This document shows positions 1 to 63,226 of a DNA stretch of 64,000 nucleotides, one piece after another. Position numbers and translations under genes: made by a program. The notes under the pieces are model-generated. The model was not told the origin of the DNA. It worked only from the letters and a program-made list of their open reading frames with translations, and did no database searches. The DNA is from Psammoneis japonica (Eukaryota): NCBI GenBank assembly GCA_008632985.1, contig QPGO01000174.1:62001-126000 (forward strand), given 5' to 3'. Positions within the stretch are counted from its first letter, which is position 1, and each line of letters starts with the position of its first letter.

Positions 1-1460
1 TCATCAACTTTGGACCCTTTTTCACTGTTCCATTGGCATGGGTGACTCACGCACTTGCATCAGTTGATGCCATGGAGGAAATGTGCATGGAGGTGGGAAA
101 AAAATGGTCCTTGGAGGCAGATTGTGAGTGAGCTGAGGCTCAATTGTTGGCGCTGACAGTTTTGGTCTTCTTGTGCCATGCCGCAGCCTGCATCAAGCAT
201 TTTCATCATTGTGGCAGATGCCACAGACTGCATCAAATGCTGCGGTTGGTTGAAAAAAGTGGGCCATCATGGTTGCTAAAAGTCACAGCCATTTTGGCAG
301 TCAGTTGGCTCAAATTTAGTGACTGATGGATGGGATCTTCAGGTTGAATGGAAGGATGGCATGTCCAACTGGCACAAATGAGATTGCTGGTGAGCCAGCT
401 TTCAACTGATTGGTGTGGGACATCTTGCATGTCAGTGTGCCAGGATGGTTGTGAAGGTCAAGTCTAGCAGGTGCCAGGAGTGCACACTCCCAAAGACCAT
501 GGTGCAAGCCCTGGCTGTGGACCAGAAGACAGGGTTGGACCTTTGGAAGAAGGCAATCAAGAAAGAGATGAAAAACGTCATGCCTGCACTCGAATTCTCA
601 GATGACAACTCCATGCCAGTTGGACACAAACATGTTGAGTGCCACACAGCATTTGATGTTAAGACTGATTTGACCCAGAAAGTCTGATTTGTTGTGGGAG
701 GTCACAAAATGGAGCCACCCAAAGAGTCAACCTGCTCTGGCACAGTCTCGCATGACAGTGGTGTCAGGATGGCTTTTGCCGCTGCTGCGTCAAACAATCT
801 TGACATTGTGTGTGCGGACATTCAGAATGCCTGTCTGAATGCAAAGACTGAGAAATGCTGCCACACCACTGCTGGTCTGGAATTTGGAAAGCAGAATGAA
901 AAACAACTGCTTGCACATGTTGATGACTTGCTGGTTGTCTCTCATGAGCCTCAGATGTTTGTGGGTCATGTGGCATCTTGTTGCATGCTCAAAAAAGGCA
1001 GCATCAAGGAACCAGAAGAGCACCTTGGTGCCCAGATCTGCAAGCACCAACCATTTGGCTTGGATGGCAAGGCATGTTGGGCATTGTCCTCTGACTTGCA
1101 TGTCAAAAGGGGGCAATTGCCAATGTTGAATTCAAGCTTGGCCAGGTTGGCCAGAGCTTCAGATCCAAGGCTTCAACTCCATTGAGCTTGGGATGCAGAC
1201 CAGAACTCAACAGTTCTCCTGAATTGGATGCCCGGATTGCAAGTTGCCATCAGGGGCTCATTGGCATGCTGTTTTAGATGGCAGAGCTGGGCCAGATTGA
1301 TGTCACAGTGCCAGCGCCCCTTGTGTCCTTACACTTGGCAGCGCCAAGGGTTGGTTGCCTGGACGAGGTGCTTTGCACATTCCCACAAGTGTGGCTGCAG
1401 ACAGAACATTGTCCCAGGGTGGCTGAAGCCATCCCAAGGGACATCCCTGAGGCATGGAGC
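1..1460 (+). mobile_element. Degenerate Ty1/Copia (CoDi-like) pol fragment, reverse transcriptase region
   Basis: ORF pieces 415-687 and 694-1185 show RVT_2-type motifs: LWKKAIKKEM, FDVK, FVVGGHK, ADIQNACL (from ADIxNAYL), AGLEFG, AHVDDLL (from YVDD). Stops and frameshifts present; boundaries approximate. Confidence 0.85.
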
Positions 1461-3788
1461 AATGTCAATTTTGCTTCATTGCACACTGAGTTGTGTGCAT
1501 GTTGAATCCTGCATGAACCACTCGACTCAACATTTTTGGTGGAATTGGCTAGACTTTGACCCCTGCCAGAGCCACAACATGCACAAGATGTGAGCATTGT
1601 TGGTCTCAAACTCTTTAAACTGATGTCTTGCAAGAATGCAACAGGTGTGCATGTCAATGGCATCTGTCACTTCAAAATGGAGCTGACTTTTTTGTGGAGC
1701 ACCTTTGTTGCATGGACAAGTGCGAGAGTCAATGTTCAGTGATTGGCAACTGACTGACTTTCACCCCCATTCCAGGCCCCAAAAGTGTGCTGAACTGCAC
1801 ATTTGTGTGCTGTCAGTCAATCAAGGGGCATTTGGATAAAAACAGAAGGGTCAATTTTTGCACGTGGCATCATGGAGCTGAGGCGGAAAGTTGTTGGGAA
1901 GATGTGAAAAAAAATGCACACCATGACAAGCGCCGCTGATGCATTGTCTTGCAGCTCCACCAAAATAACACCAACGGCTCTCACAAACAACACACACAAT
2001 CTAAGAGTGTTCAAGTGACCATTGGACTCTCAAGATTGTTGAGAGATGGCCCCATCATCAAATGACACACATTTGAATGGGGTCACCCGATTCAACACAC
2101 ACAAAAAATGCTGTTTCATTGCACAATTGGACCAAGGAGAGGCAAACAATGCTGATTGATGCTGTGGACAGCTCATTGATCATTGCAGTGCCAAAGTTGG
2201 ACTGTGGTAGAGGTGCAACACCAGCCACTTGGCTGGTCATAACACAAGAGGTCAAAGAGCAGTTGGCAAGAACCCATCAAAGGCACTTGATGCTGGATGA
2301 TCATGGGAAGGTGCAGTTCAGCAAATGTGGCACCCTGTCAAGTCTTTGTGATCACATTTGTCATGTCACTGTTGTGAAGCTGTCATTGTTGGAGCAGGCA
2401 GTGGTTTCTTCATCACCAAAACTTCTGAGTGACTCCACTCTTTGTCACACAAAGTTCAGTGTTCTTGGGTTTGCATCCTTGCGATTTGATGCCAAAAGCA
2501 AAATTGTCATTTTTCTGTCTGTGGTGTGACAGGTCTTCTGATGGGCTGTGCAGCCTTTGCACTGGCACACTCTTGGCAAGCTCCCATTCTTTCAAAACAG
2601 AAATGAAAATGTGCCAGTCAGTGAATTGTCATGGCTGCATGTGCCTTCATTTGTGAGCGATGGGTCAGAGCATTCTTCAAAGAAATCAGATTGCAATTTA
2701 GGTGGAAGACGATGAAAGCACTGTCGTGCATTCTTGCTGTGGCAAAAAGGAGGGTCTGGATGCCCCAACAATCAAAATGGAAATGGTGTCTGTGTGTCCA
2801 AGATCTAAAAACAGGGGAAACTGGTTTGTGGCATTTTGCTGGGACAAGGCACTGGACACCAAAGATTGCAGAGTGTTGAAGCTGCTTTGCAATTGTTGCA
2901 AATCTTTGTGCTGACGGTCTGTCAATGGCCAAGAAATTTTTTTGCTGTGCAAACATCTTGACACTGAAAGCACTTGTCAAAAATTGGCTTTCATCACTTG
3001 CTGGAAAACACCCAGTTCCAGCAAGTGACAAAAGCCTTTTTTCAATTGTGTCAGTTGCAGGAGCTGCAGAGCAAGAGCAAAGTCCTGAAACATTGGGTCC
3101 TCCAAGTAATTTGCATGATGTTCATGGAAGGACCTCTCAACAGAAAATTGAGAATCACTCAAAAGCTTTTCCCATGCTTTTTGGTGGTGGATCCCCAAGC
3201 AAAGTAGAAGATGAAAATGTCAAATCATTGGAGTGACATTGATTTCCATCTCCATCCAAACCCCACTCAGAACACAAAACAAAAATCAAACCGTGTGCTC
3301 TGCCGGCACACTGGCAGCTGTTGCAATGGTGAACCACAAACAAATTCTGAACAAAAGGAAGCAATCCAAGCTTTTTAAGAAACCCATTGAGTCTCGCAAG
3401 AAGTGCAAGCAACCTCCTGAAGGGATCTTGGTTGAGTCTGGGGTGCCAACTGAATCCAAAAACAACATGCAAGTGCTGCAAAGCACAGCTGGCCCAATGA
3501 TGACCGTCCACAAGAAAATAAAATCAAGATTGTGGAAGATGAAATCTTGATTGAACAAGCAAAGGTGTCATCAATGTGTGCAAAGCTTGGTGACATGCCA
3601 CAGCTTGTCTGTTTGTTGAGCTTCTTGAGGTGCCTCCTGAGGAGGAATGAGGTGGTCAGAATGGAGCAACACCGCCTGCAATCAAGAACAACCTTGGCAT
3701 CCCCCCACTGCAAACATCAAAGATGTCTCACACAACATTGTGCACCACCATGAAAATCGCCCAAGGGTGGTGCAATCAAGACAGGTGC

Positions 3789-4630
3789 AAGGGTTGGCTG
3801 CCTGGACGAGGTGCTTTGCACATTTCCAGAAGTGTTGCTGCGTGCAGAACATTGTCCCAGGGTGGCTGAAGCCATCCCAAGGGACATCCCCAAGGCACAG
3901 AGCAGTGAACATGTGCAATGGTGTCACTGCCATGTTTTTTGTTGATGCAGATCATGTTGGTTGCCGCGGGACACAAGGAGATCCCATGCTGGGATCATTG
4001 TCTTTGTGCAATGTGCGCCAATCTTCTGGTGCTCTAAATGGCAGAATGCTCCAGAGTCCTTGACTTTTGGGTCAGAATTTTTTGCAATGAAGACTGCAGC
4101 AGAGCAGATTGAGGCCTTCCACACCACAAGCTTTGGATGCTTTGAATCCCCGCAGAGTGACCAACCAACGTCTTCTGTGACAACAAGGCTGTGCTCAAGA
4201 ACTCGATGTGGCTGGAGCAAACATTGATGAAGAAGCACAGCGCCATTTCTTGTTGCTGAACCTGCAAGGCACAAGCTGCAGGTGTTGTGCAGATTGCTTG
4301 GGAGGATGGATGCACAAATCTGGTGGATGTGCCCACTGAGCTTGTGCCCTGACCGAAGCTCTGGGAATTGATTCGCCACATGCTGTGGTGAATTGGCCTG
4401 TCCAAAATGGACAGGCCAGGATTGTTCCTCTCCAAAATGGAAAGGTTTTGCCCATCCCAAGCAAAGTTGTGTTTTGCCTGGAACAGGGTGGCAATGCGGA
4501 AGGTGCAGGTTGTGTCGAACTGACCTGACTGGGACAAGTGTCAGCTGGAGGGAACTGAGTGTTTCCAGCCATGTTGTCGCCAAAACGAGTGTTGGGACCA
4601 TTTGGTGAAGACCACCACTGTCGCTCAAGC
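3789..4630 (+). mobile_element. Degenerate Copia RNase H fragment plus 3' non-coding sequence
   Basis: FVDADHVG, RSHAGIIVFVQCAPIFWCSKWQN, FGSEFFAMK and FCDNKAV motifs. Homologous to the inverted copy at about 45900-46850. Confidence 0.85.
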
Positions 4631-5032
4631 ATTGGGTGGCACAGAGTAACCCTGACAATTTCCAGTCCTGTTGATTGCCGTAACATCACCTTTCCATCAG
4701 ATCTTGTCAATTTCTTAGCGACTGCGGCATGATTTACTCACCTTTTCTACAGAAATTTTGTGCAGAACGAAATTACATTTATTTTACTGTATGGCAGGGT
4801 GGGAATGGGCCTGAGTCAAACAAATCTGACCAATTGATGGCCCGAGCTAGCTACCAGTGTGTGTGACCAGACTAAAAAGACAGAGAATGAGCATTTTACA
4901 GACTACAATGCGTTTCTCTTTAGAGAGACACAGCGACACCAACAATGATGGTGCACAGACAGAGCTGGCGCACTGTCGCCCATCACCATCATGAACTGCC
5001 ACAAACATGAAGGTGTGCAAAATGACATTCCA

Positions 5033-5980
5033 TCAGCAGTAAAGCCGCACCAAAGTCAGTTCTGAACAATGAGGGCATGCTTGATTATCATCACGTTTCG
5101 CCACAACATAGCCGAGATCGAACAAACTCTTGGCAGTGTCGACAAAATCAACTTCGAACTTGAAGTCCTCAATGTCAGAAGGATGTAATTCTTCGAACTG
5201 AGTCTGGTAGTGGACTTCTACGAGAATCTGCATTGGCAAAGCGTGGCTGCGAGTTTCATGAAAGGAGTCAAAAACCCCAAATTCAAACCCTTCAATGTCC
5301 ATTTTTAGCAAATCAATTTGGGTATGATTGTTTCTCTGTGTGAGTTCATCAAGGGTAAAGAAGAGAGGACTCGGCTTGGTTCCGTTTCCACCATGTAGGC
5401 ACTCATAGTGAAACGTAAGCCGGCTATTCTCGGGTACGCTGAATCGCGACTCTGGCCCAGTACAGTCAAATGTGTGGATCTGGCATTTCGTCTTTTGAAG
5501 GAGATCTAATTCAAATTCCCACTGGTTGTTACCGCCAATCGAGTAGATGACACAGTCCTCACTCTGCAAGTTGGCAATTCCACAAGCAATTTTACTCGTG
5601 TCGGCGCGACACGGTCCTCCTATGCACGCAAGTTCGGTGCAATTCGCTAGCTCCTTGAATATTCGAAAGCGCTCGTGATCGTGTTGGCTTCCGGGAGCTT
5701 CTATAGCTTTCCGACGAGCATCGGAAAATCCTTCTTTGTATGATTGGATTTCACTTTCCTTGAATTGGAGAAAAGGAAGCGTCGGATTTAACTTACACAT
5801 TGATCTGCCATCAGATTTTCCTTTCGAAGTAAGGGGCCTAGGACGACCGTCTTGGTGCGGATGAGCGACAAGAAGATACCACAACTCATAGACCGCCACT
5901 ATAATAAAGATGTTCCGAACACTACAAACGTGGTTCAACGGTTGGTTTGCTCTCGTTGGGCGTGGGCTGACGTTCACCAT
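5033..5980 (-). CDS. Methyltransferase-domain protein (Methyltransf_22/METTL24-like) with N-terminal membrane anchor, 315 aa
   Basis: Intact ATG-to-stop ORF with normal TpA and Tyr content. Motifs CVIYSIGGNNQWEFE, CQIHTFDCT, IDLLKMDIEGFEF, QILVEVH, CPHCSELT. Hydrophobic segment IFIIVAVYELWYLLV. Confidence 0.85.
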   Translation of the reverse strand: MVNVSPRPTRANQPLNHVCSVRNIFIIVAVYELWYLLVAHPHQDGRPRPLTSKGKSDGRSMCKLNPTLPFLQFKESEIQSYKEGFSDARRKAIEAPGSQHDHERFRIFKELANCTELACIGGPCRADTSKIACGIANLQSEDCVIYSIGGNNQWEFELDLLQKTKCQIHTFDCTGPESRFSVPENSRLTFHYECLHGGNGTKPSPLFFTLDELTQRNNHTQIDLLKMDIEGFEFGVFDSFHETRSHALPMQILVEVHYQTQFEELHPSDIEDFKFEVDFVDTAKSLFDLGYVVAKRDDNQACPHCSELTLVRLYC

Positions 5981-6387
5981 GGTAGAAAAAGGTGTGTGTT
6001 GAAGGTTTCGCTGACGCCGTGCACAGCAGGACAGGACGACTGTGCACCGGTCATTTCGCCTGGGGCTCCATTGCGTTTTCCGGTCATTAACCCCACAACG
6101 TGTCCCATTCCTGAACGCTGGTGTTTTCAGCCAATCACATCATGTCATGAGTGAATTATTGTGACTCAGCAATCCCCCCATTATGACGCATCAACACTTA
6201 CACACAACGAAAATTTCAGCTTTCTGATCATTCCACCTCAGCCCACTCCCGGCTTGGGAGGTCTGCAGTTGACCTCAGCCACTCAAAATCTCCGTGTTGT
6301 GGGATCTTGGTGTTCGCGGCTCGCTCTTGCTTTCTCTCGTGTGCGCACACACGCGTGTTGCTCCAGCTCGCTCATGCTGTTCATGCC

Positions 6388-7200
6388 GGTGGCTCACACC
6401 ACCCTTCTTGTTTCTTCTTCTGTGACTCTCTGGCTGGAGCCAGAGACTCTGGGCTGACGGCGATGGACTGGAATGGCTTTGCTGCTGAGCGCGCAAGCAC
6501 GTCGCTCCCAAACCCCCAGCGCTGGAGCAGCGGGGCCAGAGGGCGGAAGAGGTGGGAGTGACGAAATTGTCTGAGGCAGCTGTTGCTCTTGGCTGCTCTT
6601 TGGAAGAATGAGAGGAGAGAGCAGCCAAGAGAAAATGACCACTGCTCTTGTTGCTCATGCAAGCATGCTCAAATTCAAATTTTTGACAGCCGCAAATGAC
6701 CAATGGCCAAGTGGGTCATTTTGCCTTGTCGAACAACACGAGGTGGGCGGCTCGCACCGCCCTTCTCACTCCTTCTCCTGTGACTCTCCAGCTGGAGCCA
6801 GAGACTCTGGGCCAATGGTGGCGGGCTGGAGCGGCTTTGCTGGTGGATGCACAAGCACCTTGGCTCACTCCCAAGCCCAAAGCTGGAGCAGCACAGGGCC
6901 AGAGGTTGGGGGAGAGGCAGGAGGAGCGACGAAACTGTCTGAGATGGCTGTTGCTCTTGGCTGCTCTCTCCTGCTCAAATTTAAATTTTTAATGGCTGCA
7001 AATGATTGGCAGCCAAGTGGATCATTTTGCCTCATCAAACGATGTGAGGTGGGTGGCTCACACCGCCCTTCTCACTCCTTCTTCTGCGACCCTCCAGCTG
7101 GAGCCAGAGGCTCCAGGCTGACAGACTGGAGTGGCTTTGCCAGTGAATGTGCAAGCCTCCTTCCCAAACCCAAAGCTGGAGTGGTGGGGCCTTCCACCAC
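6388..7200. repeat. Three diverged tandem units of about 310-360 bp
   Basis: The block ggYggctcRcaccRcccttct...ctggagccagag restarts at about 6388, 6746 and 7052. The block ctcaaattYaaatttttRaYRgcYgcaaatga occurs in units 1 and 2. Confidence 0.85.
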
Positions 7201-7299
7201 CAGCGCCGCCACAGTGCAAAGCACTTTCAAGGCATGCGCCATTGCAAGGGTGGGTGGGGAGAGGCTGGAAGGCTGGCGGCAGTGTTGTTCCTGATTGGG

Positions 7300-8480
7300 A
7301 TCTTGGGGATTCATGGGGACTTTGGCATTGGGATGAAGGACAACGTTGCTGCTTGCGAGCATGTCATGGGCAAAGTTGTGCATGATGGGCTCTGCTTGCA
7401 AGTGCAGACAGCACAGCATTTCATCAGACTGTCAGCAGCCCAAGAGCCAAATGAGATTGGCATCAATTCTGGCGCACAGGAGTGCCATGGCACCAGAGGC
7501 CCAAAGGCACCAAGCAGCAACATCTCAAGCAGTGAAACCTGGGGATTTAGGGCTGAGAGCAATGACAGTGTTCCAGAGGATGCTTGTGATGTCAGCTGGC
7601 AACACACGACACCAGGCAGTGTTTTGAAAATGGATGCCCAGTGGAGTGTCAGGGAGCACGCCATGGGCGCAGAGGTGTCTGATGCGGCAGACAAGGGCTT
7701 GAGTCAGGCACAAATTGGGATGTCCTGAAAGGCCTGATCCAAGCACTTTGCCAGGTGACCCATTTTTCTGCACAGTGAAGGTGAGGGTGGCAAAGGTTGC
7801 AGCATCAAGTTGGGCATGCATGGCTTGGAAGGTGTCCAAATGTGGGCCCCGTCAGAGGTCAGAGGCCAAGTGCATGTCTGCCAGTTGGAAAGGTGTGGTG
7901 TCCAACGGTGTTGCAGTGCACTTGCCAGGATGCAACAAGAAAAAGAAAGCAACTGCAATCATGTCAGCAATGGCTTTGGTGTCTGGATCATCGCTGTTGG
8001 CGGCAGCGCGCATGATCCAGGTGAGAACTGCTGCTGGGACTGGGGGGATCCTCTTTCTTGCAGAAACGAACTTGGCAGGCAAGGCGGAAATCCATGCCAC
8101 CTTGGGGTGTGTGTGGCATGGATCCAGGGCCCCCATCACAGTGAACGTTTGGCCAATTGACTGCGCGGCATCCTCAGCGGCATGTCCTTGGACGGGATTT
8201 TTTTTGTGTGCATCCTGTGCAGACCCTTCACACAAGGTGAGTCAGTTGCACAATGGCCAGTCGTGCCAGCCTCAGTCACATGGATCTCCTTCAGCCTGCC
8301 ACAGGTCTTGCACTGGGAGTTGCATTTTCCAGTGCATGCTTCTGCATGATCAGCGTCACTGCGGAAAGCCTGCAGATGCAGGAAAGTGGAAATCATTGGC
8401 ATCTGCAGCAGGGATGCCTGCTGCAGTGCACCACACAGCTGTGGAGAACACTGTTTCTGCAAACATGGCCTCATGCATGG
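7300..8480 (-). pseudogene. Tyrosine recombinase remnant, probably from a YR element (DIRS/Ngaro or Crypton type)
   Basis: AIADMIAVAFFFLLHPGKC (from FFFLLRPGEY), LTFTVQKNG, ASGAMALLCA and LLGC*QSDEMLCCLHLQA (from GRWxSDEMLRYLH) across ORF pieces 7852-8235, 7525-7839 and 7072-7419. Confidence 0.8.
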
Positions 8481-19807: not shown

Positions 19808-19880
19808 ATTGTGAACTCATGACTGAGTGAGACAGGCACATGTGCTCTGTGACCAAGTGTGCCCTCTCTCTCTGATGTGT

Positions 19881-53000: not shown

Positions 53001-54129
53001 GAAGTGAAGGAACTCATGAGATTCAAAACCAAAAACTGTGCATTCAAAGCTGGAAAGTGCAACAGCATCGAATCTGGTGGAGTGCCATTTTTGTCCAAGC
53101 ACCAAAATTTTGGAGGTTGGGCAACTGCCCTTGGACTGGATCTTGAGAGCAGAGAGCTGGCTGGTGTTTGCCATGGTGGAACTTTTTGCAATTACAGCAA
53201 ACCAGATGCAGCAGCAAAAACCCGGAGTGTGGTCGGTGCTAGAAAAGAGTTTGTTGAGAGGTGACAACATTGAAGAGGGCAGCATGCTGAGCGCATGTGG
53301 GTGCATCTATTTTCCCAATCGCTGAGTCATCATCAAGTGTCGGCATTGAGGCTGGATTGATGTTTAGCGGCATTTTTTTAAACAGCTCGTGATTCCACAA
53401 TTTGCTCGCACTTCGCCCGCATCATTTTGCGATGCATCTGAGCACCCCCAAACACTTGTGTGTGTGTGTCCAGCCCCCATCAGGGCTGTTGGACTTTGAT
53501 GTGAACCACACTTGTCAACCTTCAAACGCCAATTCTTGCATTGGGTGTGGTTGTCACATTCGACAAACCGCTGTTTTTTGCCAAAATTGGGCTGTTTGTG
53601 GTGGACAATCCACAACTTTCCAGGAAAGGCCGACAATTGGCATTTGACTGGCTGTGGACACATCTGCGGTTGTTGTTCTAGAGATCCCAAACCTTCACAC
53701 TTCATGTTCATTGTGCATGCATTCCATGACATCTTGCGAACGGACAAAGTTTGACCTGTCGCTGAGCACATTTTTGGCGAAAGCACGCATTGTCAGTGCA
53801 AAGAATCCGGGTTGTTTTGAACATTTACGAGCTCTAAATGAAATCAACCGCCGGGCATCGATCCATCCTTAAGAGAATGTGCAAGTGAAGCAAGGGTGGG
53901 AACGGTGCCATCAGATGCAGGAGTGCTTCTACATGACATTACCTTGATGGAATTTTGGACATGAATTGAAGGGAAAAGTGCAAGGTTGTTGGATCAGGAA
54001 CAGCAGCAGTCTGATCAAGATTCACTTTTTGTGTGGCACTCTCTCGGCTTAAATGGACAGAGAGCTTGTTCCTCACTTGAAAGGTCCTCCCAACCACGGG
54101 CCTCCATTCACGTTTCAGATTCTAGTCTC

Positions 54130-54740
54130 TTGATCAAAACCATGAAAGAACAGTTTTGTCAGTGTCAGCAATGCCATCTGTCAAATTCGCCCACTCATCT
54201 TCAGCAGCATCAGTGCGCACCTCTTCAAAATTGTCAAACAACCAATTTAACAGCAATTTTGTGAAAACGATCTTCAACAAAAAACAGTGCTTCAATGCCA
54301 TGAGTTCCATCAAAACATGGACACTTCTTAGTGCGAGCACTGCCATCATCACATGACTGAGTCAATTTCACACTTTCCAAATCAGAGTGCTCAAACTTCG
54401 CCTCACAATCAATGCATGGCTCCTTCAATGATTTGCTTGTCATGGAGGACAGAATGTGATTGTGCGACAGTCCTCTCCAGGGACTCTGCCTTTGATTCCA
54501 AGTGATGCACTCGACTCGCCATGTTCTGTTCATGATGTTTGCACTGTTGCACTTGCTTCTGATGGTCAACAGCCCAAGCTGCTGCTCCAGCTCATGGTTC
54601 TCTTTTCTCACACTTGGTTTTTCTGCACACGGCTCAGTCTCCATCCAGTTCTTTCGGTTGACTGTAATTGCAGTGCAAGGTCAAATGAGGTGAAGACTTC
54701 AATGACAACAAAGTTGTGAGAAGAGACCGAGGGAGGTGCA
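54130..54740 (-). mobile_element. Truncated Gypsy fragment (LTR end, leader, start of gag) related to A/B
   Basis: SDLESVKLTQSCDDGSARTKKCPCFDGTHGIEALFFVEDRF aligns with Gypsy B SELQEVKLTQTFDDGAKLSKMCPVFTGEHGIESLSHVEDQL. Junction ccttgca|ctgcaattacag matches A/B. Confidence 0.8.
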
Positions 54741-56341
54741 CGACACTGCAGTGATTTCATGTGGAATGATTGAGGACCATCACACCAAGATTTCTGGGCT
54801 GATGAGAAGTCATTGATGCTGTTGAACACAAGCAGTTCCCAACAATGCTGATTTTTGCAAAGTTGAAATGATGTGATGCTCCACAAGCTTTCTGCAATGT
54901 TGTTCATCAGGCACAGTCTTGGTTGAACAAACAGACACATGTCATTCCCCCGTGCGACACCACCCCCCCCAGGTGTGCCACTGATTCCACAACACTGCTG
55001 TTCATGGGCAACATGATGAAGCCAGACAGATGGCATTTTGATGTGATGCAAAAGCAGAAGTGAAATCCATGTGTGACCGTTGTCCTGATTGTCTCACTTG
55101 GGATCAGGCTCCCTTGTTTGACCAGGCTGAACAACATCTTCAACACCCCACTCATCAATTGTGCAATTGGCTGGCTGTGGACAGAACCATGTTCATGGGT
55201 GGCATCCAAGAGGCTTGGAAACATGCACTGTGCAGTGCAAAAGAACAGCTTCCAGCTGCTTTGGCTGGGTGCTGCAATCTGTTGGCTGGTGCCAACTTGG
55301 GCCAGTTGCATTGACTCCTGCCACACTCAGTTTGCTGAGAGTTTGGGCCAAGCAGTTGCTGGCATTGCAGGGTGAACATGCAGCGGCACTTGAAACACAT
55401 GGGTTGTTCTTTCTTTCTTTGTCTCATCTTGCCACGGAGGGGAGGTGTGTCATGACTCACAAAGACAAGAGCGGGCAGATGCACTCTCCACCATGAGCCT
55501 CTGCACAACAATCCTGTGCACTTTGCACATGCTCTCTGTCTGCAAAGGCTCTCATGGATGAAATGCAGATGATGTGTCAGGGCTGCATGTGTGAGCTGTT
55601 GGGCGAAAGCAAGCACAGTGGGCGTGGTTTGTAGAGTGACATGGGCCAAAGTCATGATGTCATTTTCCAATTCCAGAGTGCCAAGCATGGCTTCAAAAGT
55701 GTCACAGGATGAGACATGATCAGCAAGCAACAAGCAAAACAGATCAATTGGTGTCAGTGCTTCAAGCTCCTTGCTGCACTTTCTTTTTAAAATCAAGGAC
55801 ACTTGCAGTTTTCTGGAGGTCATTTTCATGTTGGCATGCACCGGCCAACTCTGTGGGTGCTTGCCCAGTCATTTGAGTCAAGGTGGCAATCAGCCCACAT
55901 TCCAGTGGGGCGTTTCTTCTGAGCATGGCTTGCTTTTGCATTTCTCTGGATTGCTTTGGACATTCCCAACAAGTCATTTTTGACCAGAGCCCTTTTCCCA
56001 TTCAAGTCATCTTTGCCACAAGCACTGTCATTTTGTCTGCAAATTCAAGCTGCAGAGCCTGCAAAAAGAACAACTCCATTGGGTGAGTGGCTGAACCAAC
56101 AACCACCAGCACAGTTTGTTTGCCAAGCAGGAAGAAATCCACACCAGCGCACACACAGGAAGTGTTGAAAAAATGCGAAAAAAGTGACAGAAAACAAGAT
56201 CACAGGCCACGCTCTCTCCAAATTTTCCAGCTGTGGTCCAACCACATCTGGTGCAGAGGTGCCAATGAACAATGACAGAAGGCATTTCCTGCACTGAAAA
56301 CCTGCAAAAGTTGTTTTGTGAGTGCTGTGTGTCAGAAGGCT

Positions 56342-59300
56342 TGACAGAAAATGAAGATGACTGGGTGGAAGAAAACAACAACTCCTTGCTGCTGTCTAAA
56401 TGGCGGATGAGTCTCCATGCAGAGACCGTTGCAGGAGCCGAAAGACTGGTGTCGTGATGTCGGTGCCACTGTCATCACTCTTGTGAGCCGAGTGGCTTGA
56501 AAGCAAACTGCATCGCGCGACGTGCACGGAACCAAGAGCACACATGATCATGTGTGACAAACCAAAATCTTGCTCAAATCCTGTCACTCCCCAGTTTGCT
56601 TGAGGGGTCAACAGCGATGGATTCAAAGTCAGATTGGTTGAAAGCCTCGGGATCGAAGTTCCAAAACATTAGAGGACGAAGGAGGTTCCAGATTTGGGAG
56701 CAACCCCAATGCTTGCTGAGGATGTCAGCCGGGTTGCAGGAGCCTTTGACAAAATGAAACTTGAGGAAACCGGAGGCAATCACATCACGCACATGATGGA
56801 ATGAGAGGGCGGTGTGTCGCTTGTGTGACATGGAGTGCGGGATGGCAGCACTGTCCACAACCAACTTGTTGTCCCCAAACATGTAACATGTTTCATGAAT
56901 GGGAATGCCAAGGCAACGCAAAGTGATGTGCAGATCAATGATCTGCTCAACGCACATCCTTGCGGCAACAAACTCGGATCCATGTGCAGCGGTCTCAACT
57001 GTTGCTTGTTTCTCAGAGAACCAATCAGCCGGAAACTTGTTGAGGAAATGGAGGATGCCGGTGACAGAGCGTCCAGTGAGCATGCAATGGAACAAGTTTG
57101 CATCAACGCAGTGTGTGGTGGTGACGAACTTGCCAAGTGGCTCGGGTGCATCTTGCAGGAGCAGCTCTTCTACCTCCCCATGCACAGATTGAGCCCAGTC
57201 ACACACGGGCTCAGGGAGGTCCGAACAGTCGGGCTCCTCGGTGCGCACTCAGAGGGCGCCATGACGCATCTTGGAGAGGAATCCGCTGATGCATTTGGCA
57301 CGGTCTGGGTGGCCTTGACGGGGTGCTGCACGGAAGCTAGACAGGGACATGACAGCCGCAGCAGTGTCAATGTGACCCAGAGATGCGGCCCATTGCAGGG
57401 ATCCAATCAAGGGTTGGAATTGGTGGATGCCCTCCGGTTTGAGCAATTCGGAGGTGTCAAGCTCAGGGTGGTCACTCTTGTCAAGGGGTGAAAGCACATC
57501 AGTGCAGGGCTTCTCCCCAAAGAGGCGTGCACAGTTGTCAACCATGCGCTCGATGCACTTGCGGGGAGCAAGGCACAGGGCACCGTCTGGGTCACGGGTG
57601 AAGTCGCAGCCAAGATGGAACTCCAATGGTCCAGTGCCCTTGAGCTTGAACTTGTGCTTCTCCATGAGGGTGTCTGCAAAAGCCTGGGGGTCCTTCATGG
57701 CAAAGGCCAGGTCATCCACATGCACTGCCACGCATTCGCAGTGGTCACCATTCCTGCACAGCCAGATGTCGGGTTTGGCTTTGCATGGAAAGAAGCCTTC
57801 GGCATGCAAGCAATCGGCAAAGCATTCATGCCATCTGAGACCAGAGCTGCAGAGTCCATACAAGGCCTTGTGGATGACAAGGATGTGTCCTTCCAGGTCG
57901 CCGAACTCGGGGCCTGCTGTGATGCACAGTTTCTCTTTGGTCGCAGCTTCAAGGCAGGCATTCCCAATGTCAGTGGCCCAGGTCTCTAGTTCATTGAGTT
58001 CGGCCAGGAAGATTGTCATTCGCAGGCCACAGAGGGACACCACTCCAGAACAGACACTGTCGATGGGCACGTCTGTGAGGTGTCCATCGGCAACAAGCCT
58101 TGCTTTGTGCCGTCCATCATGTTTGATGTCATGGACGAGATGCGCCTGGATCTTCTTGTGTCCTGATGGTGCACTGGAATCCTTGTGGTGTCCGCAGTCA
58201 TGGAAGACCTTGCACTCATCAAGCTGAGTCATCTCGAGGTCCGTTGCGTCTCCCTGCTTGCGGTTGCCGTTGCACTCATCAAGGGCCATGGCATGCTTGT
58301 AGTCCTGTGGCACTTCACACCCGCACTTGTGTCGTGGCGCAGTGCGAAAGGAGCATAACTTGGCTTGGTTGGCCATGCGGAATGGCTTCTTCTGGTGAAG
58401 GGCCATCTTGCAAAAATGTCTCCATCCTTCAGTTTCTAAAAGGCCGTGCTCACGCGCGCAGACAGCACAGGTTACGGGGTCATCCTTGGCAATGATGGCA
58501 AGGGGTTTGGACATGATCTCCCCATTCTCCCATTCAAGCATGATGTTGCAGCTTGAGCCTTTCCAAGAGGGATCATGGGGTTGCAATGGTCCTTCGTGCG
58601 ATGCAATGCATCGGAACTTCCAGAGGGTGGTGTCCTCGTCTTCTTGCTCAATGTGGTGCATGATGTTGTTTGCAGGCTGGGACTTCCTTGTGTTTGTCAT
58701 TGTTGATGGAGCAAATGAACTTGACCAGTTCAGGATTGTCTCCAATTTTCCAGTCGTGGTCCTCAATGGCTTTGACGATGCGGGCTCTGTGGCGTTGTCC
58801 ATCCTCTTGTGGCTTCATGAGGAAGGTGCGTCCGATGATGTCCTCGGGGTCAAAGACCGGCATTTTGGGCATCCTGATTGCCTCCCCATCTGGTGAATCT
58901 GGGGGAATCCTTTGAGTCGTGGCGGGATTTAATGACAGGGTCAGCAGATTTCTCATCAGGAGGATCAAGACGCAGGTTTGGAGCAGATGGATCATGAGCA
59001 GAGTGCATGTTGGAACGGCAGAGAATCTTCTGAGTGTCATCAGAAAGAATCTTGAACGTCATTTGGTGACCAACGTGCTCGGCGATGCCAATGAAGTGAC
59101 CACGTAATTCACGGGATTCGGGTGGCCAGTCAGAATCATCCTGTTGGCAGCACACAGGTTCCCACCATTGAAAGCGGAGGAGCCGGCTGATGTCGGGAGT
59201 GGAGCCAGATGGCACCTCAGTGGGGGTGCACCAGTGGAGCTTGGCTGACACTGTGTGGTTGAGCACAAAGCACATGCACATCAGGGCGAGCAGCCAGGTG

Positions 59301-62300
59301 CAAGCCAGGGACCCAAAGTGATCCATGACAGTGTTGGCCATGGTCTTCACAATTTGGCAGCGGCGTTCAGCAAAATTCTGATGCTGGTGGTGAGGCTTGC
59401 TTTGCCAACTAGAGATGAAGAGGGCACGAAGGATGCCAAGAACCTTGTTGCTGATTTCAACCTGAGCACGGTTGCTGATGAGCTTGGACGGGGCACCACA
59501 ATTGCGAATGTTGTCTTCGAGGGTGTTGACAAATTCTTTGTCAGTTGTGGTGCCACACACGTCAGTGACAAGAGATTCCGTGCCGACAAAGAGCTGGGCA
59601 CTGGTGCAACCAGTGTCAACAGCAGGGGTGTCGGAGCAGACCGTGTTGGCAGCAACGGGTTCATTGTGTCAGTGGACATTGAGAGCCGGGTTGGGCAATT
59701 TGTGCACCTTTTTCAGGTGCGTGCTGGCTGGCATGCAGGCGCACTGCATTGTGCAATCAAAAGTGCAGCGGACAGTGTCCTTCGGGAGAAAGCCAAAGCA
59801 GGGGCAGAGGGACTCAAAGTTGGGATCCTTGGGATTGAGTTCACACTCATGGCACTCGTAGAAGAAATCAGATGTCGGGAGCAGGTGATCATCAAGGATG
59901 GAGTCTGCAAGCATGGCGTTGTTGATGACATGGCGGTGATGACAGTTGCCAAACTCATCAAAGAGGTTGGCAGTCGGGTCGTCTTGGAGGTCAGACACGG
60001 CATCATGCCACGTCTCATCGTCCATGAACTGGTGGTCAAGGACAGATGGATCCCATGTGTCATCACCAGTGAGAATGACATGCGGCAGAGTGTCCCATTT
60101 GGCGTCGGTGTGCAGGCATGTGGTGATGCATGGGAGGCTGGCTTTAATGTCGATGGGAATGACGCATCCATCAACAGTGGTGACACGCTGCAGACCATTG
60201 GGGACCTTGATGGACCAATCGTTGACATCGTGTTTGCACCACTTGAGCTGGCCGCAAGAGTGTGTCATCTTCCCCTTTCCAGTGCAGGTGCACTGGTGAA
60301 GGATGGCAATGGCAGGGCCGCGTTGCGCGTGGATGACACCACTGGCAGCAACAATGGGGATGTCGACTGGTTGATGATCGTCGACACCTTGGACGTCAAC
60401 CTGGTGACCAGTGCGGGCAATGACACAAACATCATCACCGGCGATGCCACTGTTTGCACCACGATCCACGAGAGCACCTTTGCGAGTTGACTTGTGGGTC
60501 GAGGCAGAGCAGACGACATTGTGGTTGTTGACGCGATGGCATTTGTGGCCGTTGATCTCAATGTCAGTGTCATTGGGCTTCGCGTCGGAGCGGGCAGAAG
60601 GTGCAGATCCAGGGGGTTTCTTGCCTGAACAAGCGGAAGGAGGCCGTTCAGGTGCCAGGAGATGTTGCAAGTCGCCGGGTGGCAGGGGCTTGCGCCTGGT
60701 GAGATGAGCCAGAATGGGGTCAGCATCGGCTGCAGCATCGGATGGTGCGAGTTCCGATGCAACATCATGGGTGTTGGCGGACAAGTTGACGTCGCCGTCG
60801 CTGCCAAGACGGAGGTCATGGAGGTTGACCATCATCGAGTCATGGCAGTTGCCGGTGTGGGCATTGCACGAGCAAAGAATGATGGCCTTGGTGGACTGGG
60901 GCAAGGTGTCCCAAATGCACTGATGGTCCAGCAGAATGCAACGCCATTGTTCCCTGCACCTGGTGAGGGAGTTGCCGTGGGTCTGTGAAGCATGGGCTTG
61001 GATGACATCAACATCACTGTCGATGTCGAAGAATGCATCATTGTCAGGGTCGTCGGGAACCAGGTCATGTTCGTAGACGGCACGGCATGGAGCGTGAGGA
61101 GCGGTCTTGGGGGTGAACGTGCTGTTGCACTGTGCTGCAGCAGAAAGCAGAAGTCCACAGCACTCTTGGCTAGAGAGACCCTTTCCATTCTGCGTGCGGA
61201 ACTGATCAGCTTGATTCTTTGCCAAGCGGAGTTCTTCAACAGGATGAACGGCGTTCTCAAGCATGACATGTTTCTGGCCAGCAGAGAAATGGTCCGCACC
61301 CGGGATGAGAGCTCCACACTTGCGGAGCTGGTCCTGCCAGTGAAGTGTGAAGGCATGGGTGGATCCCTTCCAGGTGCCATCACCGAGGCAAGCAGTGGTG
61401 AGGTGCGCAAGAAGGGTCGAGGACTCCAGGGATGCGTGAGCAGAAGTGAGGGCGCACTTGGAAAGGTCGCGACACACCACTTGAGCATCAGAGGAGCTGA
61501 AATGTTGACGAACAAGCACCTTGCCTTTGTCATTCTGCAAGATCCATTCGAATGCGGCAAACATGTGCTTCTGTTGTTCATCAAACAGGGCCTTGTCCTC
61601 AGCTGTGGAGGGCTTGCACTTCGGATCAAGAATGAGTTCGACGTCCTGGGAGCGGGCCTGTGCAATGATGGAGGTGTGCCACGTGCACCACTGTTTGTCT
61701 GACTTGAGAGTCACGAAGGTGAGTGGGTCACGTTTGATGCCTCGTTTAAAGTCACGCACAGGGTCACGTGGTTTGGGTGGCAAAGAGCCAGGGGTGGGAG
61801 CAGATGGCACTGCACCCATGGAGAGGGATGCCACACACTCAGGACTAAGATGACAGTCAGTGAGCTCCTTGTGAGTGAACAATTGAGGGTTGTTGCTGAC
61901 ATCCGCGCCGCCGCGCGCTTTTGCCATGTGCAGGCTAATCAGCGCAGCTGTCTGTGCTTTGCAACCACATGGCAAGGGCATCTGATTGGTGCCATTGTTG
62001 CACACAAGGGCATCCAGTTGCGTCGGAGTAAAAGCAAAAAGGTCCTGATGCAAATCGGTTCCATCAATGTTGAGAGTGGAGCGCAATGGACTGTTCGCGG
62101 CTTGGTTCAGAACAGTGCCTAGAATGTGCTCGAGGCCATCAATTTGTTGTTGCCTGGTGAGAACCTTGTTGCAACCAGGTGGATGTCGGAACTGGCTGGA
62201 GTCGGAGGGTGAGCTTGAAACAACTTGAAACTTGACTTGAATCTTGACTTGATGTCTTGAGCTGTCTTGAGAGTCAGAAGCCGCCGGGCTGTGATGCCCC

Positions 62301-63226
62301 ATTTGCAGTTGAGTGCCAAGCTTCCCATCTGGTCCGCAGAGTTGTGCCAGCACGTCTGAACCCACAGCTGGCGACACTTTGGGTTGCCTGAGAGCGGAGC
62401 AATGGGTTAAAAACCCCTGCTGACAAGCCAGCCAGAGGTGGACAAGACCTCCAAACCGTTCTTGTTTTATGTCGGTTGGACAACCCGATCAGGCCGGCCA
62501 AATTTGGCGCTGTGGAGGGATGAACAAACGTGGGAAATGCACCCTCACCCCAACACAGGCTGCGGTCATGAACTGCTTCCTCTCACAGTTGTCCTGGCAG
62601 ACCTTGTGGGACTGCAGAAGACCAGCAATCCAGTGCAGACACAAGGCGGCAGACTTGGCATGTGCAGAGCAGGGCCAGAGTCAAGGGTTTGCATCGTGTG
62701 CACGTGGACGCGAGCGGATGGACTGGCAGGATCCGCCACAAGGAATCCGGAATCTCAGACGTCTGAGAATTTGGGAATTCCTGGCCAAACAAATGTCCGT
62801 TGAACAAACATGTCCAACGATGGGAGGTGTTGGACAAATCCAAACGTGTGGATTTGACCCAGCACCCAGCAGCGAAGAAGGTGGGCACGTGTGCTCCCAC
62901 CACCAACGGCGCACATCGTCAAAAATTTCTTGATGATGACAATGAACGCTCAATGGACAACAAAGAGCAAGACTGTCAATCTGACAGAAAATGAAGATGA
63001 CTGGGTGGAAAAAAACAATGGCTCCTTGCTGCTGTCCAAATGGCAGATGAGTCTCCGTGCAGAGACCGCGGCAGGAACCGAAAGACTGGCGCCGTGATGC
63101 CTGCACTGCTGTTGTCATTTTTGTGAGCCGAGTGGCTCAAAAGCAAACTGCATCACGTGACGCGCGCGGAACTGAGAGCACGCACAACCGTGTGTGACAA
63201 ACCAAAATCTTGCTCAAATCCTGCCA
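56342..63226 (-). mobile_element. Copia (CoDi-like) element B, full length, inactivated
   Basis: 245-bp LTRs at 62982-63226 (5') and 56342-56586 (3'), perfect TSD AGGCT, PPT ctggggag. Gag-protease ORF 59669-62377, integrase (QNFAERR), RT (KARLVADGH, DIGNACL, AVHVDD), RNase H (DANLFH, GSEFVA, NPADIL). Confidence 0.97.

What the first reader, a model, noticed from the sequence alone, without database searches (positions are those of the whole stretch)
1..63226. Repeat-restricted TpA to TpG/CpA hypermutation, a candidate genome-defence system opposite in direction to RIP
Seen: transposon-derived segments are almost free of TpA. I count 4 TA in the 1.69-kb Copia ORF 26274-27962. Tyr counts are 0 in that 562-aa ORF, 0 in the 368-aa RT ORF 38426-39532 and 2 in the 902-aa ORF 59669-62377, against about 18 in the 386-aa epimerase. 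Homologous copies carry Cys in one and His in the other where Tyr is expected (ACPDHN/AHPNHD, AKCE/AKHE, KCMFA/KHMFA), which is TAY to TGY or CAY, i.e. A to G on either strand. Leu to Pro/Ser (ERPCKLKVSRK) and Ile to Val changes fit the same rule. Established: fungal RIP and 5mC deamination are C to T processes, and RIP creates TpA, so neither removes TpA. Inference: a process targets repetitive DNA and converts A:T to G:C at TpA. Candidate mechanisms are a DNA adenine deaminase (TadA/ADAT-like) or Pol-eta-type error-prone repair in heterochromatin. No effector gene is visible in this window.
Basis: partly seen in the sequence, partly recalled or inferred. Interest (0 to 1): 0.96.

Follow-up and report, generated by a model that had tools for sequence, protein, structure and literature searches.

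The report
TpA-erasing hypermutation of silenced transposons
In the transposon-rich 88% of this diatom-like DNA stretch almost every TA dinucleotide was turned into TG or CA after the elements inserted, an A-to-G process running opposite to fungal RIP that I found reported only once before, in an unrelated alga.

Summary
Five blocks totalling 56,374 bp hold 217 TpA where 3,619 are expected (O/E 0.06). Five gene-bearing islands (7,626 bp) keep O/E 0.59, and the borders are sharp to within tens of bases.

The direction is TA to TG/CA. Conserved Tyr becomes Cys or His in 46 of 68 columns and stays Tyr in 4. In three repeat pairs the copy next to a gene island keeps TA at 12 of 12 discordant sites.

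The change happens in the DNA after insertion. The LTR pairs of four elements differ almost only by transitions inside YR dinucleotides, often TG in one and CA in the other.

New detail: the preferred site is 5'-T[A]Y-3', T[A]AA is refractory, and neighbouring events show no strand coordination. CpG decays in the same domains, but more slowly and without context preference.

It is not unprecedented. A 2026 preprint reports TpA-only A:T>G:C hypermutation of integrated viruses in Bigelowiella natans. This window is a new, far more saturated case in a stramenopile, aimed at LTR retrotransposons. The enzyme is unknown; adenine deamination is the leading guess but is untested.

The parts
1..4646 (.). 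TpA-purged block D1 (TA O/E 0.06, CG 0.19); no Pfam domain; 3824-4740 is repeated at 45810-46722
4647..6199 (-). Island I1 with normal TpA (O/E 0.48): FkbM-type methyltransferase gene (ORF 5033-5980)
6200..12555 (.). TpA-purged block D2 (10 TA against 387 expected; CG 0.28); holds the N run 12418-12461
12556..14693 (.). Island I2 (TA O/E 0.62); ORFs without a Pfam family; includes the spared 5' LTR of gypsy A
14694..43256 (.). TpA-purged block D3 (135 TA against 1,880 expected), made of nested LTR retrotransposons plus unclassified DNA
14513..19807 (+). Ty3/gypsy element A. The 5' LTR 14513-14689 beside the island keeps 8 TA. The 3' LTR 19633-19807 keeps 2. Internal TA O/E 0.08, CG 0.63
20400..30670 (+). 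Ty3/gypsy element B (older: TA O/E 0.03-0.04, CG 0.24-0.28), split by the copia 1 insertion
24227..29111 (+). Copia element 1. LTRs 24227-24504 and 28834-29111 are 91.4% identical, with 21 of 24 differences inside YR columns. Internal TA O/E 0.09, CG 0.73
36561..41671 (+). Ty3/gypsy element C, the youngest. LTRs 36561-36870 and 41362-41671 are 94.5% identical, with 2 differences outside YR columns. Internal TA O/E 0.09, CG 0.69
43257..44889 (-). Island I3 (TA O/E 0.73): gene 43404-44435 with no Pfam family
44890..48622 (.). TpA-purged block D4 (7 TA against 261 expected; CG 0.25)
48623..50443 (+). Island I4 (TA O/E 0.59): UDP-glucuronate 4-epimerase-like gene (ORF 48690-50009) and its flanks
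50444..63519 (.). TpA-purged block D5 (45 TA against 778 expected)
56342..63226 (-). Copia element 2. LTRs 56342-56586 and 62982-63226 are 85.3% identical. The RT box reads HVDD where relatives have YVDD. Internal TA O/E 0.07, CG 0.58
63520..64000 (.). Island I5: TpA returns (13 TA in 481 bp) up to the window's end

Best explanation
This is nuclear DNA of a diatom-like stramenopile. Silent, transposon-filled domains have undergone a DNA-level, post-insertion hypermutation that converts TpA to TpG or CpA (A>G on either strand), while the transcription units embedded among them are spared. The process hits each strand independently. It strongly prefers 5'-T[A]Y-3' and is weakest at T[A]AA. It runs roughly two orders of magnitude faster than background substitution, so elements lose about 90% of their TpA, and with it nearly all Tyr codons, while their LTRs are still about 98-99% identical outside YR sites. 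Ordinary CpG-to-TpG/CpA decay, as expected for 5mC, proceeds more slowly in the same domains. It is the same kind of process as the TpA-only hypermutation of integrated viral DNA measured in Bigelowiella natans. Shown here: direction, DNA level, timing, context and domain restriction. Inferred: the chemistry is most likely enzymatic adenine deamination (A to inosine, read as G) by a deaminase that reads about three bases on one strand and is recruited to silenced or foreign chromatin. The effect is a genome defence that destroys transposon coding capacity. My confidence is about 0.9 for the phenomenon and about 0.45 for the deaminase chemistry.
For: Depletion and borders.

Direction (outgroups): against 60 homologues, the copia 2 RT keeps 197 of 217 conserved non-Tyr, non-Arg columns but only 2 of 17 conserved Tyr (Cys 10, His 1). 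Copia 1: Cys 4, His 2, Trp 1 of 7. Gypsy ORFs: His 15, Cys 14, Phe 9, Tyr 2, other 4 of 44.

Direction (border copies): the island-adjacent copy keeps TA at 12 of 12 discordant sites.

Post-insertion and DNA-level: the four LTR pairs have 15, 21, 22 and 24 differences inside YR/YR columns against 2/154, 3/132, 1/83 and 12/123 outside them. TG-versus-CA double differences number 2, 8, 6 and 7. Eight paralogue alignments hold 281 TG/CA columns.

Mass balance against 78 intact relatives: TA falls 50.9 to 4.0 per kb and CG 46.3 to 25.8 per kb, a loss of 67.4. TG+CA gain 65.7 per kb.

Context: TA per kb falls 16.6 to 0.11 at RTAY, 12.65 to 0.78 at YTAY/RTAR, and 8.99 to 2.3 at YTAR. YTGY gains 13.6 against 4.0 for YCAY. 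Survivors carry A at +1 (51% against 21%) and at +2 (50% against 24%). CpG loss shows no context preference.

Independence of events: runs tests give z between -1.7 and +1.5.

Seen elsewhere: locus L076 has 3 TA in 2,766 bp, Tyr 1 of 469 and a CVDD box; L075 is partly purged. 4 of 150 cluster representatives are Tyr-free.

Precedent: 230 of 231 de novo mutations in two viral regions of B. natans were A>G or T>C, and the authors state that all of these fall on TpA.
Against: No effector is in the window and no genome is held, so the chemistry is untested. A-centred deamination at T[A]Y cannot be told from a T-centred process at R[T]A from sequence alone.

The one eukaryotic ADAT2 shown to deaminate DNA adenine prefers GAA, not TAY (passages of PMC10354150).

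The Cys:His ratio is 14:3 in the copia ORFs but 14:15 in the gypsy ORFs. L076 shows His 7, Cys 3. The context rule therefore explains only part of the strand choice, or it differs between organisms.

Among the 28 listed allelic differences in purged DNA, 19 are CpG-type and only 1 is TpA-type. This may simply reflect the lack of remaining targets, but it gives no sign of current activity.

Only one sample, probably the source, holds the sequence. Domain dependence rests on three border copies. About half of the purged DNA could not be shown to be transposon-derived.
Confidence: 0.55

Rival explanations
1. Thymine-centred chemistry. A TET/JBP-type dioxygenase marks T in 5'-R[T]A-3' of silenced DNA as 5hmU or 5fU. 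The oxidised base mispairs with G and yields T>C, which is the same TA>CA/TG outcome.
For: The signature is symmetric and cannot distinguish A>G at T[A]Y from T>C at R[T]A. A thymine dioxygenase that makes 5hmU and silences transposons is reported for dinoflagellates (PMC11572971, seen in the search listing only). That 5-formyluracil pairs with G, and that dinoflagellate 5hmU favours TpA, are recalled and not tested here.
Against: No such enzyme or base is shown for diatoms in any call. 5hmU itself mostly pairs with A (recalled). No data here address base modification.
Confidence: 0.12
2. Repair bias rather than a mutator. A G.T-mismatch-specific repair activity that is hyperactive in 5mC-methylated chromatin resolves G.T mispairs at TpA towards G.C. 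This would resemble the way very-short-patch repair depletes CTAG in enterobacteria.
For: TpA loss and CpG decay share exactly the same domains and borders. Events are independent single hits with no strand runs. The VSP/CTAG precedent, and TpA as the second-best context of thymine DNA glycosylase, are recalled and not tested.
Against: Overcorrection by a CpG-directed G.T repair should turn TpG into CpG, yet CpG falls here. A rate roughly 200-300 times background needs a large supply of mismatches. In B. natans the process switches on only in some lines, which looks regulated.
Confidence: 0.1
3. Error-prone patch repair by a Pol-eta-type polymerase in heterochromatin, triggered by T:G mismatches from 5mC deamination. 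This was one of the reader's two candidates.
For: It would link the CpG and TpA changes in the same domains. That Pol eta makes A>G errors at WA motifs is recalled.
Against: WA includes ApA, but ApA is not depleted: O/E 1.21 in purged DNA against 1.17 in islands. About 99% loss at RTAY with a 3' pyrimidine rule and a T[A]AA refractory site looks like enzyme specificity, not polymerase error.
Confidence: 0.04
4. RNA-level editing (ADAR- or ADAT-like) of retrotransposon transcripts before reverse transcription, so that copies arrive already mutated.
For: The recognisable targets are retrotransposons. In the copia ORFs, sense-strand A>G (Tyr>Cys) dominates 14:3.
Against: The two LTRs of an element are identical at integration, yet they differ mostly at YR sites, with TG in one and CA in the other. 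Both strands are hit. The 5' LTR beside an island kept 8 TA while its twin kept 2. T[A]G is disfavoured, whereas ADAR prefers UAG (recalled). ADARs being confined to animals is also recalled.
Confidence: 0.02
5. Artefact of sequencing or assembly (for example a modified base misread), or transposon families that were always TpA-poor.
For: Only one sample, probably the source, holds the sequence. Its sequencing platform is not on record.
Against: Contigs rebuilt from reads at word depth about 58 reproduce the purged sequence across two borders. An unrelated metagenome contig (L076, about 66% nucleotide identity) shows the same purge. 78 of 80 related loci have TA O/E 0.49-1.00. HVDD/CVDD in place of the catalytic YVDD box and Tyr-free polymerases cannot be functional ancestors. 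The islands sit on the same contigs and read normally.
Confidence: 0.03

Closest known systems
   Same: Almost only A>G/T>C at TpA, giving TpG/CpA. [quoted passage not shown] It runs GC-ward, against the usual bias. TpA-poor coding sequences are enriched for reverse transcriptase and DDE domains. It is proposed as a genome defence through adenine deamination.
   Different: The host here is diatom-like (stramenopile), not a chlorarachniophyte (Rhizaria). The recognisable targets here are LTR retrotransposons. The purge here is near saturation (O/E 0.06 over 56 kb), against Rho 0.45 in the B. natans NCLDV region. This window adds the 3' rule (T[A]Y favoured, T[A]AA refractory), the co-located CpG decay and the sparing of border copies. 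No de novo mutation was measured here.
Repeat-induced point mutation (RIP) of ascomycete fungi
   Same: In-place, DNA-level transition hypermutation that ruins transposon copies and leaves neighbouring genes intact, with sharp compositional borders.
   Different: Here TpA is destroyed and TpG/CpA are made. RIP depends on sequence duplication, whereas here repeat copies next to genes escape, and the B. natans target is single copy.
5-methylcytosine deamination at CpG in methylated transposons
   Same: It is present in the same domains: CG O/E 0.43 against 0.93, with no context preference. 19 of the 28 listed allelic differences in purged DNA are of this type.
   Different: It cannot remove TpA. 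It accounts for about 30% of the TG+CA gain (20.5 of 67.4 per kb). It is slower: young elements have CG O/E 0.58-0.73 while TA is already 0.07-0.09.
APOBEC3 or ADAR editing of retroelements in animals
   Same: Deaminase-driven hypermutation that inactivates retroelements.
   Different: Those act before or during reverse transcription and mark one strand (recalled). Here the changes arose after integration, on both strands, without strand-coordinated runs.
TadA/ADAT2-ADAT3 tRNA adenosine deaminases and derived adenine base editors
   Same: The natural substrate has U before the edited A34, and for bacterial TadA a C after it (UAC; recalled). That resembles T[A]Y.
   Different: No such gene could be examined here. 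The amphioxus ADAT2 that edits DNA prefers GAA for adenine and TCG for cytosine (passages of PMC10354150).

Membership tests
TpA-directed A:T>G:C hypermutation of foreign or silent DNA (Bigelowiella natans type) | Changes are almost only A>G/T>C at TpA, giving TpG/CpA | tested here: met
   Polarised by homologues: 46 of 68 conserved Tyr columns are now Cys or His and 4 are still Tyr. Border copies keep TA at 12 of 12 discordant sites. Mass balance holds.
TpA-directed A:T>G:C hypermutation of foreign or silent DNA (Bigelowiella natans type) | Confined to particular regions; host genes keep a normal spectrum | tested here: met
   TA O/E is 0.06 in 56,374 bp against 0.59 in five gene islands, with abrupt borders.
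TpA-directed A:T>G:C hypermutation of foreign or silent DNA (Bigelowiella natans type) | Targets are of foreign origin (viruses, transposons) | tested here: inconclusive
   Five LTR retrotransposons are purged. The remaining roughly half of the purged DNA has no recognisable domain: 7 of 137 ORFs scanned had a family, all transposon-type.
TpA-directed A:T>G:C hypermutation of foreign or silent DNA (Bigelowiella natans type) | Arises in chromosomal DNA at a rate orders of magnitude above background | tested here: met
   This is indirect. LTR pairs differ at YR sites (15-24 differences) but hardly elsewhere (1-3 in three pairs), while internal TA O/E is 0.07-0.09 against about 0.7 in relatives. 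My arithmetic gives roughly 200-300 times background. No de novo mutations were measured.
TpA-directed A:T>G:C hypermutation of foreign or silent DNA (Bigelowiella natans type) | Intermittent activity (only some lines) | not testable with these tools
   This needs mutation-accumulation lines.
Fungal RIP | C>T at CpA, creating TpA and depleting CpA/TpG | tested here: not met
   The opposite is seen: TA O/E 0.06, TG and CA 1.7.
Fungal RIP | Triggered by sequence duplication, so all copies of a repeat are hit | tested here: not met
   The 5' LTR of gypsy A has 8 TA and its twin has 2. Two other repeats keep TA only in the island-adjacent copy. This rests on three cases.
ADAR-type RNA editing followed by retrotransposition | Edits precede integration (both LTRs alike) and mark the sense strand only | tested here: not met
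   LTR pairs carry TG in one and CA in the other at 2-8 sites each. Both TG and CA are enriched.
Pol-eta-type A:T mutagenesis (WA motif) | A>G at both TpA and ApA | tested here: not met
   ApA O/E is 1.21 in purged DNA against 1.17 in islands.
TadA/ADAT-like DNA adenine deaminase system | A CDA-fold deaminase gene (HxE...PCxxC) that acts on DNA in this organism | not testable with these tools
   No genome is held, and the window's islands encode none.

The most novel reading that the evidence does not exclude
TpA hypermutation is an old, enzyme-based genome defence shared across the SAR supergroup (Rhizaria and stramenopiles). In this reading, a natural DNA adenine deaminase with 5'-TAY-3' specificity is recruited to silenced or foreign chromatin. 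It acts on both strands and sterilises new transposon insertions before 1-2% of ordinary divergence has accrued. It would be a mirror image of fungal RIP, a major and so far overlooked shaper of algal genome composition, and a possible source of natural adenine base editors.
Probability: 0.35. Interest if true: 0.92.

Novelty: new member of a known kind. Interest (0 to 1): 0.74.

Why it matters
Until 2026 every known genome-defence hypermutation (RIP, RIP-like TCG mutation, APOBEC) was a cytosine-to-thymine process. An A:T>G:C process aimed at TpA has now been measured once, in a chlorarachniophyte.

This window shows the same signature in a distantly related, ecologically dominant algal lineage, and at saturation. 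It covers 88% of a 64-kb stretch and has erased nearly all Tyr codons and TAA/TAG stops of five retrotransposons.

It adds facts that constrain the mechanism:
- action after integration;
- both strands hit independently;
- a T[A]Y preference with T[A]AA refractory;
- precise sparing of transcription units and of repeat copies that touch them;
- coexistence with slower CpG decay.

It also has practical consequences. Purged DNA is full of long spurious ORFs, because only TGA stops remain. Transposon dating from LTR divergence will be badly inflated unless YR sites are masked. Finding the enzyme would be of direct interest for base editing.

Tried and rejected
- Whole genome: none is held for this window, so there was no genome-wide TpA map, no family consensuses and no effector search.
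- Earlier notes of this scan: nothing by place, words or sequence.
- Sequencing runs: one sample and one study only, with no RNA holder listed. Laid contigs show presence only. Run X2 covers just the two genes, and run X3 laid nothing.
I wanted it only for taxonomy of the gene at 43404-44435.
- Cluster look-up for the Tyr-free representatives: the database was switched off, so their sources remain unknown.
- Pfam on 137 ORFs of at least 110 aa: 7 had a family, all transposon-type. The CpG-poorest purged DNA stays unclassified.
- Tandem repeats (score 80 or more) and tRNAs: none.
- Strand-coordinated clustering of conversions: none found, so I dropped the idea of processive single-strand bursts.
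- Replication- or transcription-strand bias as the cause of Tyr>Cys over Tyr>His in the copia ORFs: rejected in favour of sequence context. The two copias lie on opposite strands yet share the bias, and gypsy ORFs show 14:15.
- GC-biased gene conversion: rejected, because ApT (0.91) and ApA (1.21) are not depleted.
- Literature: searches with diatom/TpA, TpA depletion, RIP-like, A-to-G, TpA+TpG+CpA+hypermutation, ADAT2 and diatom+retrotransposon+hypermutat found no report of this signature in diatoms. They found one report in any organism, the B. natans preprint.
- The preprint's supplementary mutation table could not be opened, so its 3' context could not be compared.

Full report
OBSERVATION

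The window has TA O/E 0.13, CG 0.48, TG 1.67 and CA 1.65. In 500-bp bins the TpA count is either 11-31 or 0-9, against about 33 expected, with almost nothing in between.

Listing single TpA positions gave refined borders with five purged blocks: 1-4646, 6200-12555, 14694-43256, 44890-48622 and 50444-63519. Together they span 56,374 bp and hold 217 TpA against 3,619 expected (O/E 0.06), with CG 0.43, TG 1.73 and CA 1.70. The five islands span 7,626 bp and hold 330 TpA against 558 expected (0.59), with CG 0.93.

- 4 TpA in 26274-27962, against 79.5 expected;
- Tyr 0 of 562 aa, 0 of 368 aa and 2 of 902 aa;
- 18 Tyr in the 388-aa epimerase.

The quoted peptide pairs lie at homologous places of paralogous elements.

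WHAT THE DNA IS

The islands carry ordinary genes:
- an FkbM-type methyltransferase (5033-5980, minus strand);
- a UDP-glucuronate 4-epimerase-like gene (48690-50009);
- a gene without a Pfam family (43404-44435).

The epimerase's best matches are 63-70% identical. The hits in that list that carry an organism name that can be read are all diatoms: Stephanopyxis turris, Chaetoceros dichaeta, C. debilis and C. tenuissimus. I therefore call the host diatom-like. No genome is held.

Self-comparison and Pfam resolve five LTR retrotransposons:
- gypsy A, 14513-19807;
- gypsy B, about 20400-30670, split by copia 1;
- copia 1, 24227-29111;
- gypsy C, 36561-41671;
- copia 2, 56342-63226 (minus strand).

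The rest of the purged DNA has the lowest CpG (O/E 0.05-0.3). It gave no Pfam family: 7 of 137 ORFs scanned had one, all transposon-type. Parts of it are repeated within the window. Because TAA and TAG are gone, purged DNA is full of long overlapping ORFs on both strands. These are by-products of the missing stops, not genes.

DIRECTION

Against 60 homologues (55-65% identical), the copia 2 RT keeps 197 of 217 conserved columns that are neither Tyr nor Arg. It keeps only 2 of 17 conserved Tyr (Cys 10, His 1, Phe 2, Ala 1, Trp 1) and 10 of 19 conserved Arg (Cys 5, His 3, Gln 1).

Copia 1 gives Cys 4, His 2 and Trp 1 of 7 conserved Tyr columns. Six gypsy ORFs, against 40 homologues, give His 15, Cys 14, Phe 9, Tyr 2 and other 4 of 44. 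That alignment is looser: only 394 of 667 other conserved columns are unchanged.

The catalytic YVDD box reads HVDD in copia 2 (against the consensus). So TAY became TGY or CAY. Separately, CGN became TGN or CAN.

Of the 80 related copia loci kept from metagenomes (the best 80 of 382 confirmed), 78 have TA O/E 0.49-1.00. The family is therefore not TpA-poor by nature.

With these 78 loci as a stand-in for the ancestor, the books balance (my arithmetic). TA falls from 50.9 to 4.0 per kb and CG from 46.3 to 25.8 per kb, a loss of 67.4. TG+CA rise by 65.7 per kb. About 70% of the TG/CA excess thus comes from TpA.

LEVEL AND TIMING

The two LTRs of an element are identical when it integrates. Here they differ almost only by transitions; copia 1, for example, has 23 transitions and 1 transversion. 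Most differences fall inside YR dinucleotides: 15, 21, 22 and 24 differences inside YR/YR columns, against 2 of 154, 3 of 132, 1 of 83 and 12 of 123 sites outside them.

Many are double differences, with TG in one LTR and CA in the other (2, 8, 6 and 7 sites). This is the mark of two independent single hits on one ancestral TA or CG. In the youngest pair (gypsy C) seven differences still show TA against TG or CA. Eight paralogue alignments add 281 TG/CA columns.

The changes therefore arose in chromosomal DNA after insertion. That excludes RNA editing before reverse transcription as the main cause.

Elements whose LTRs are 98-99% identical outside YR sites already have internal TA O/E 0.08-0.09, while CG is still 0.63-0.73. 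Gypsy B is older, being interrupted by copia 1, and has TA 0.03-0.04 and CG 0.24-0.28. TpA loss therefore comes first and CpG decay follows.

Taking about 0.7 as the starting TA O/E, my rough arithmetic gives about 2 events per TpA site against 0.006-0.011 per ordinary site. That is about 200-300 times background, and about 25-45 times for CpG. These ratios are inference, not measurement.

SPECIFICITY

Survival of TpA depends strongly on its neighbours. Against the intact relatives, TA per kb falls:
- from 16.6 to 0.11 at RTAY;
- from 12.65 to 0.78 at YTAY/RTAR;
- from 8.99 to 2.3 at YTAR.

The islands as baseline give the same order.

In mixed sites the gain goes to the product expected from the strand whose A is followed by a pyrimidine: YTGY gains 13.6 per kb against 4.0 for YCAY. 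After subtracting the CpG-derived share this is about 7:1 (my arithmetic).

Surviving TpA carry A at +1 (51% against 21% in relatives) and A at +2 (50% against 24%). They sit in TTTAAA-like contexts. So the half-site is 5'-T[A]Y-3', read on each strand separately, and T[A]AA is refractory.

This accounts for Tyr>Cys exceeding Tyr>His when the preceding base is a pyrimidine (12:3), against 7:6 when it is a purine (small numbers). The pooled Cys:His ratio is 14:3 for the copia ORFs but 14:15 for the gypsy ORFs, so context is not the whole story.

CpG loss shows no such context dependence. ApA and ApT are not depleted. That argues against Pol-eta-type WA mutagenesis and against GC-biased gene conversion. 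The order of TG and CA outcomes along a copy is random (five runs tests, z from -1.7 to +1.5), so events are single and independent, not strand-coordinated bursts.

WHAT IS TARGETED

Borders coincide with transcription units plus a few hundred bases, not with coding sequence. The 434 bases after the epimerase stop keep dense TpA up to 50443.

Three repeats have one copy touching an island and one deep in a purged block. At all 12 TA-discordant sites, the island-side copy keeps TA. The clearest case is gypsy A: its 5' LTR has 8 TpA (O/E 0.63) and its twin has 2 (0.19).

Position therefore matters more than homology. That fits a chromatin-domain or foreign-DNA rule better than a RIP-like duplication rule. 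With one window I cannot tell 'repeats' from 'all silent non-genic DNA'.

REALITY CHECK

Only one sample (three runs, one study) holds the sequence, and it is probably the assembly's own source. Contigs built from run X1 at word depth about 58 cover the purged DNA and span two borders (42017-45839 and 49970-53375), with 11 and 15 differing letters.

Of the 40 listed differences (53 more were not shown), 28 lie in purged DNA: 19 are CpG-type, 1 is TpA-type and 8 are other. CpG decay is therefore ongoing, while TpA targets are nearly exhausted.

Independent data show the same thing elsewhere:
- Metagenome locus L076 (about 66% nucleotide identity to copia 2) has 3 TpA in 2,766 bp, Tyr 1 of 469 and a CVDD box. 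L075 is partly purged, with O/E 0.33.
- Among the best 150 cluster representatives matching the copia 2 RT, 4 are Tyr-free and 9 have under 2% Tyr, against a median of 4.18%. They carry HVDD, CVDD, KALCG or KALHG motifs.

Their sources could not be looked up.

COMPARISON WITH WHAT IS KNOWN

Seven of my eight full-text searches asked for this signature, and they found one report of it. One search covered only for 5hmU in dinoflagellates.

In that report, Mettrop et al. (bioRxiv 10.64898/2026.01.13.699255) followed mutation-accumulation lines of Bigelowiella natans. I read the abstract, the Results and the Discussion. They placed 231 of 302 nuclear mutations in two integrated viral regions, at about 6e-7 per site per generation, roughly 1000 times the rest of the genome. 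230 of the 231 were A>G or T>C, and the authors state that all of these fall on TpA. The mutations appeared only in some lines. TpA-poor coding sequences there are enriched in reverse transcriptase and DDE domains, and the NCLDV target is single copy. They propose an ADAT2-like adenine deaminase. The preprint does not mention diatoms or a trinucleotide context.

The present window is thus a second, phylogenetically distant and far more saturated instance of that kind. It adds mechanistic constraints.

It is not RIP, because the direction is opposite and copies are not hit equally. It is not 5mC decay, which is present but separate. It is not ADAR/APOBEC-type pre-integration editing. It does not fit the Pol-eta pattern.

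MECHANISM

Shown: DNA-level, post-insertion, strand-independent A:T>G:C at T[A]Y within silent domains.

Inferred: enzymatic adenine deamination by a short-motif, single-strand-reading deaminase recruited by chromatin state or small RNAs.

The motif resembles the U-A-C context of bacterial TadA (recalled). The only eukaryotic ADAT2 shown to edit DNA prefers GAA (PMC10354150, passages only).

Two alternatives remain open:
- thymine oxidation at R[T]A. Dinoflagellates use a 5hmU-forming dioxygenase to silence transposons (PMC11572971, search listing only);
- biased G.T mismatch repair.

No effector could be sought, because no genome is held.

VERDICT

'Repeat-restricted' is unproven. The kind has a recent precedent. 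I rate it a new member of a very recently described kind, of high but not top interest.

Noticed in passing
L076:1-2766 and L075:1-2561 (metagenome loci): L076 is a copia fragment from an environmental metagenome with 3 TpA in 2,766 bp, Tyr 1 of 469 and CVDD in place of YVDD. Here Tyr>His (7) exceeds Tyr>Cys (3), the reverse of the window's copias. L075 looks half-way purged (TA O/E 0.33, 13 Tyr left).
   Followed up: partly
window 43351-44379 and 48833-49997: Run X2, from the same sample, yields long contigs (1,029 and 1,165 bases) only over the two island genes; elsewhere only 21-43-base pieces near 47.3 and 53.5 kb were laid. Run X1 covers everything. X2 looks like a transcriptome, which would mean the islands are expressed, but its kind is not on record.
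   Followed up: no
window 1-64000, e.g. 15260-16694 and 59255-62377: With TAA and TAG nearly absent, purged DNA carries many long overlapping ORFs in several frames and on both strands (185 stop-to-stop ORFs of at least 110 aa). Gene finders would over-call here.
   Followed up: partly
window 12556-14265: Island I2 has normal TpA and three consecutive minus-strand ORFs (12647-13132, 13207-13683, 13687-14265) without any Pfam family. It may be a multi-exon or lineage-specific gene.
   Followed up: no
window 12418-12461: A run of 44 N (an assembly gap) lies inside purged block D2, about 100 bp before the border of island I2.
   Followed up: no
window 5033-5980 (minus strand): An FkbM-type methyltransferase (Methyltransf_21/22) gene is embedded between purged blocks. 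Nothing links it to the hypermutation.
   Followed up: no
window 36561-36870, 41362-41671, 24227-24504, 28834-29111: The LTRs of the two youngest elements keep CpG at O/E 1.04-1.18 and TpA at 0.19-0.24, while their internal parts have CG 0.69-0.73 and TA 0.09. The LTRs are less affected than the coding interior.
   Followed up: partly
proteins P0387, P0430, P0504, P0505: These are Tyr-free copia RT fragments (Cys 4-8%, His 4-9%), only 50-54% identical to the window's copy, found among public cluster representatives. Their sources could not be looked up.
   Followed up: partly
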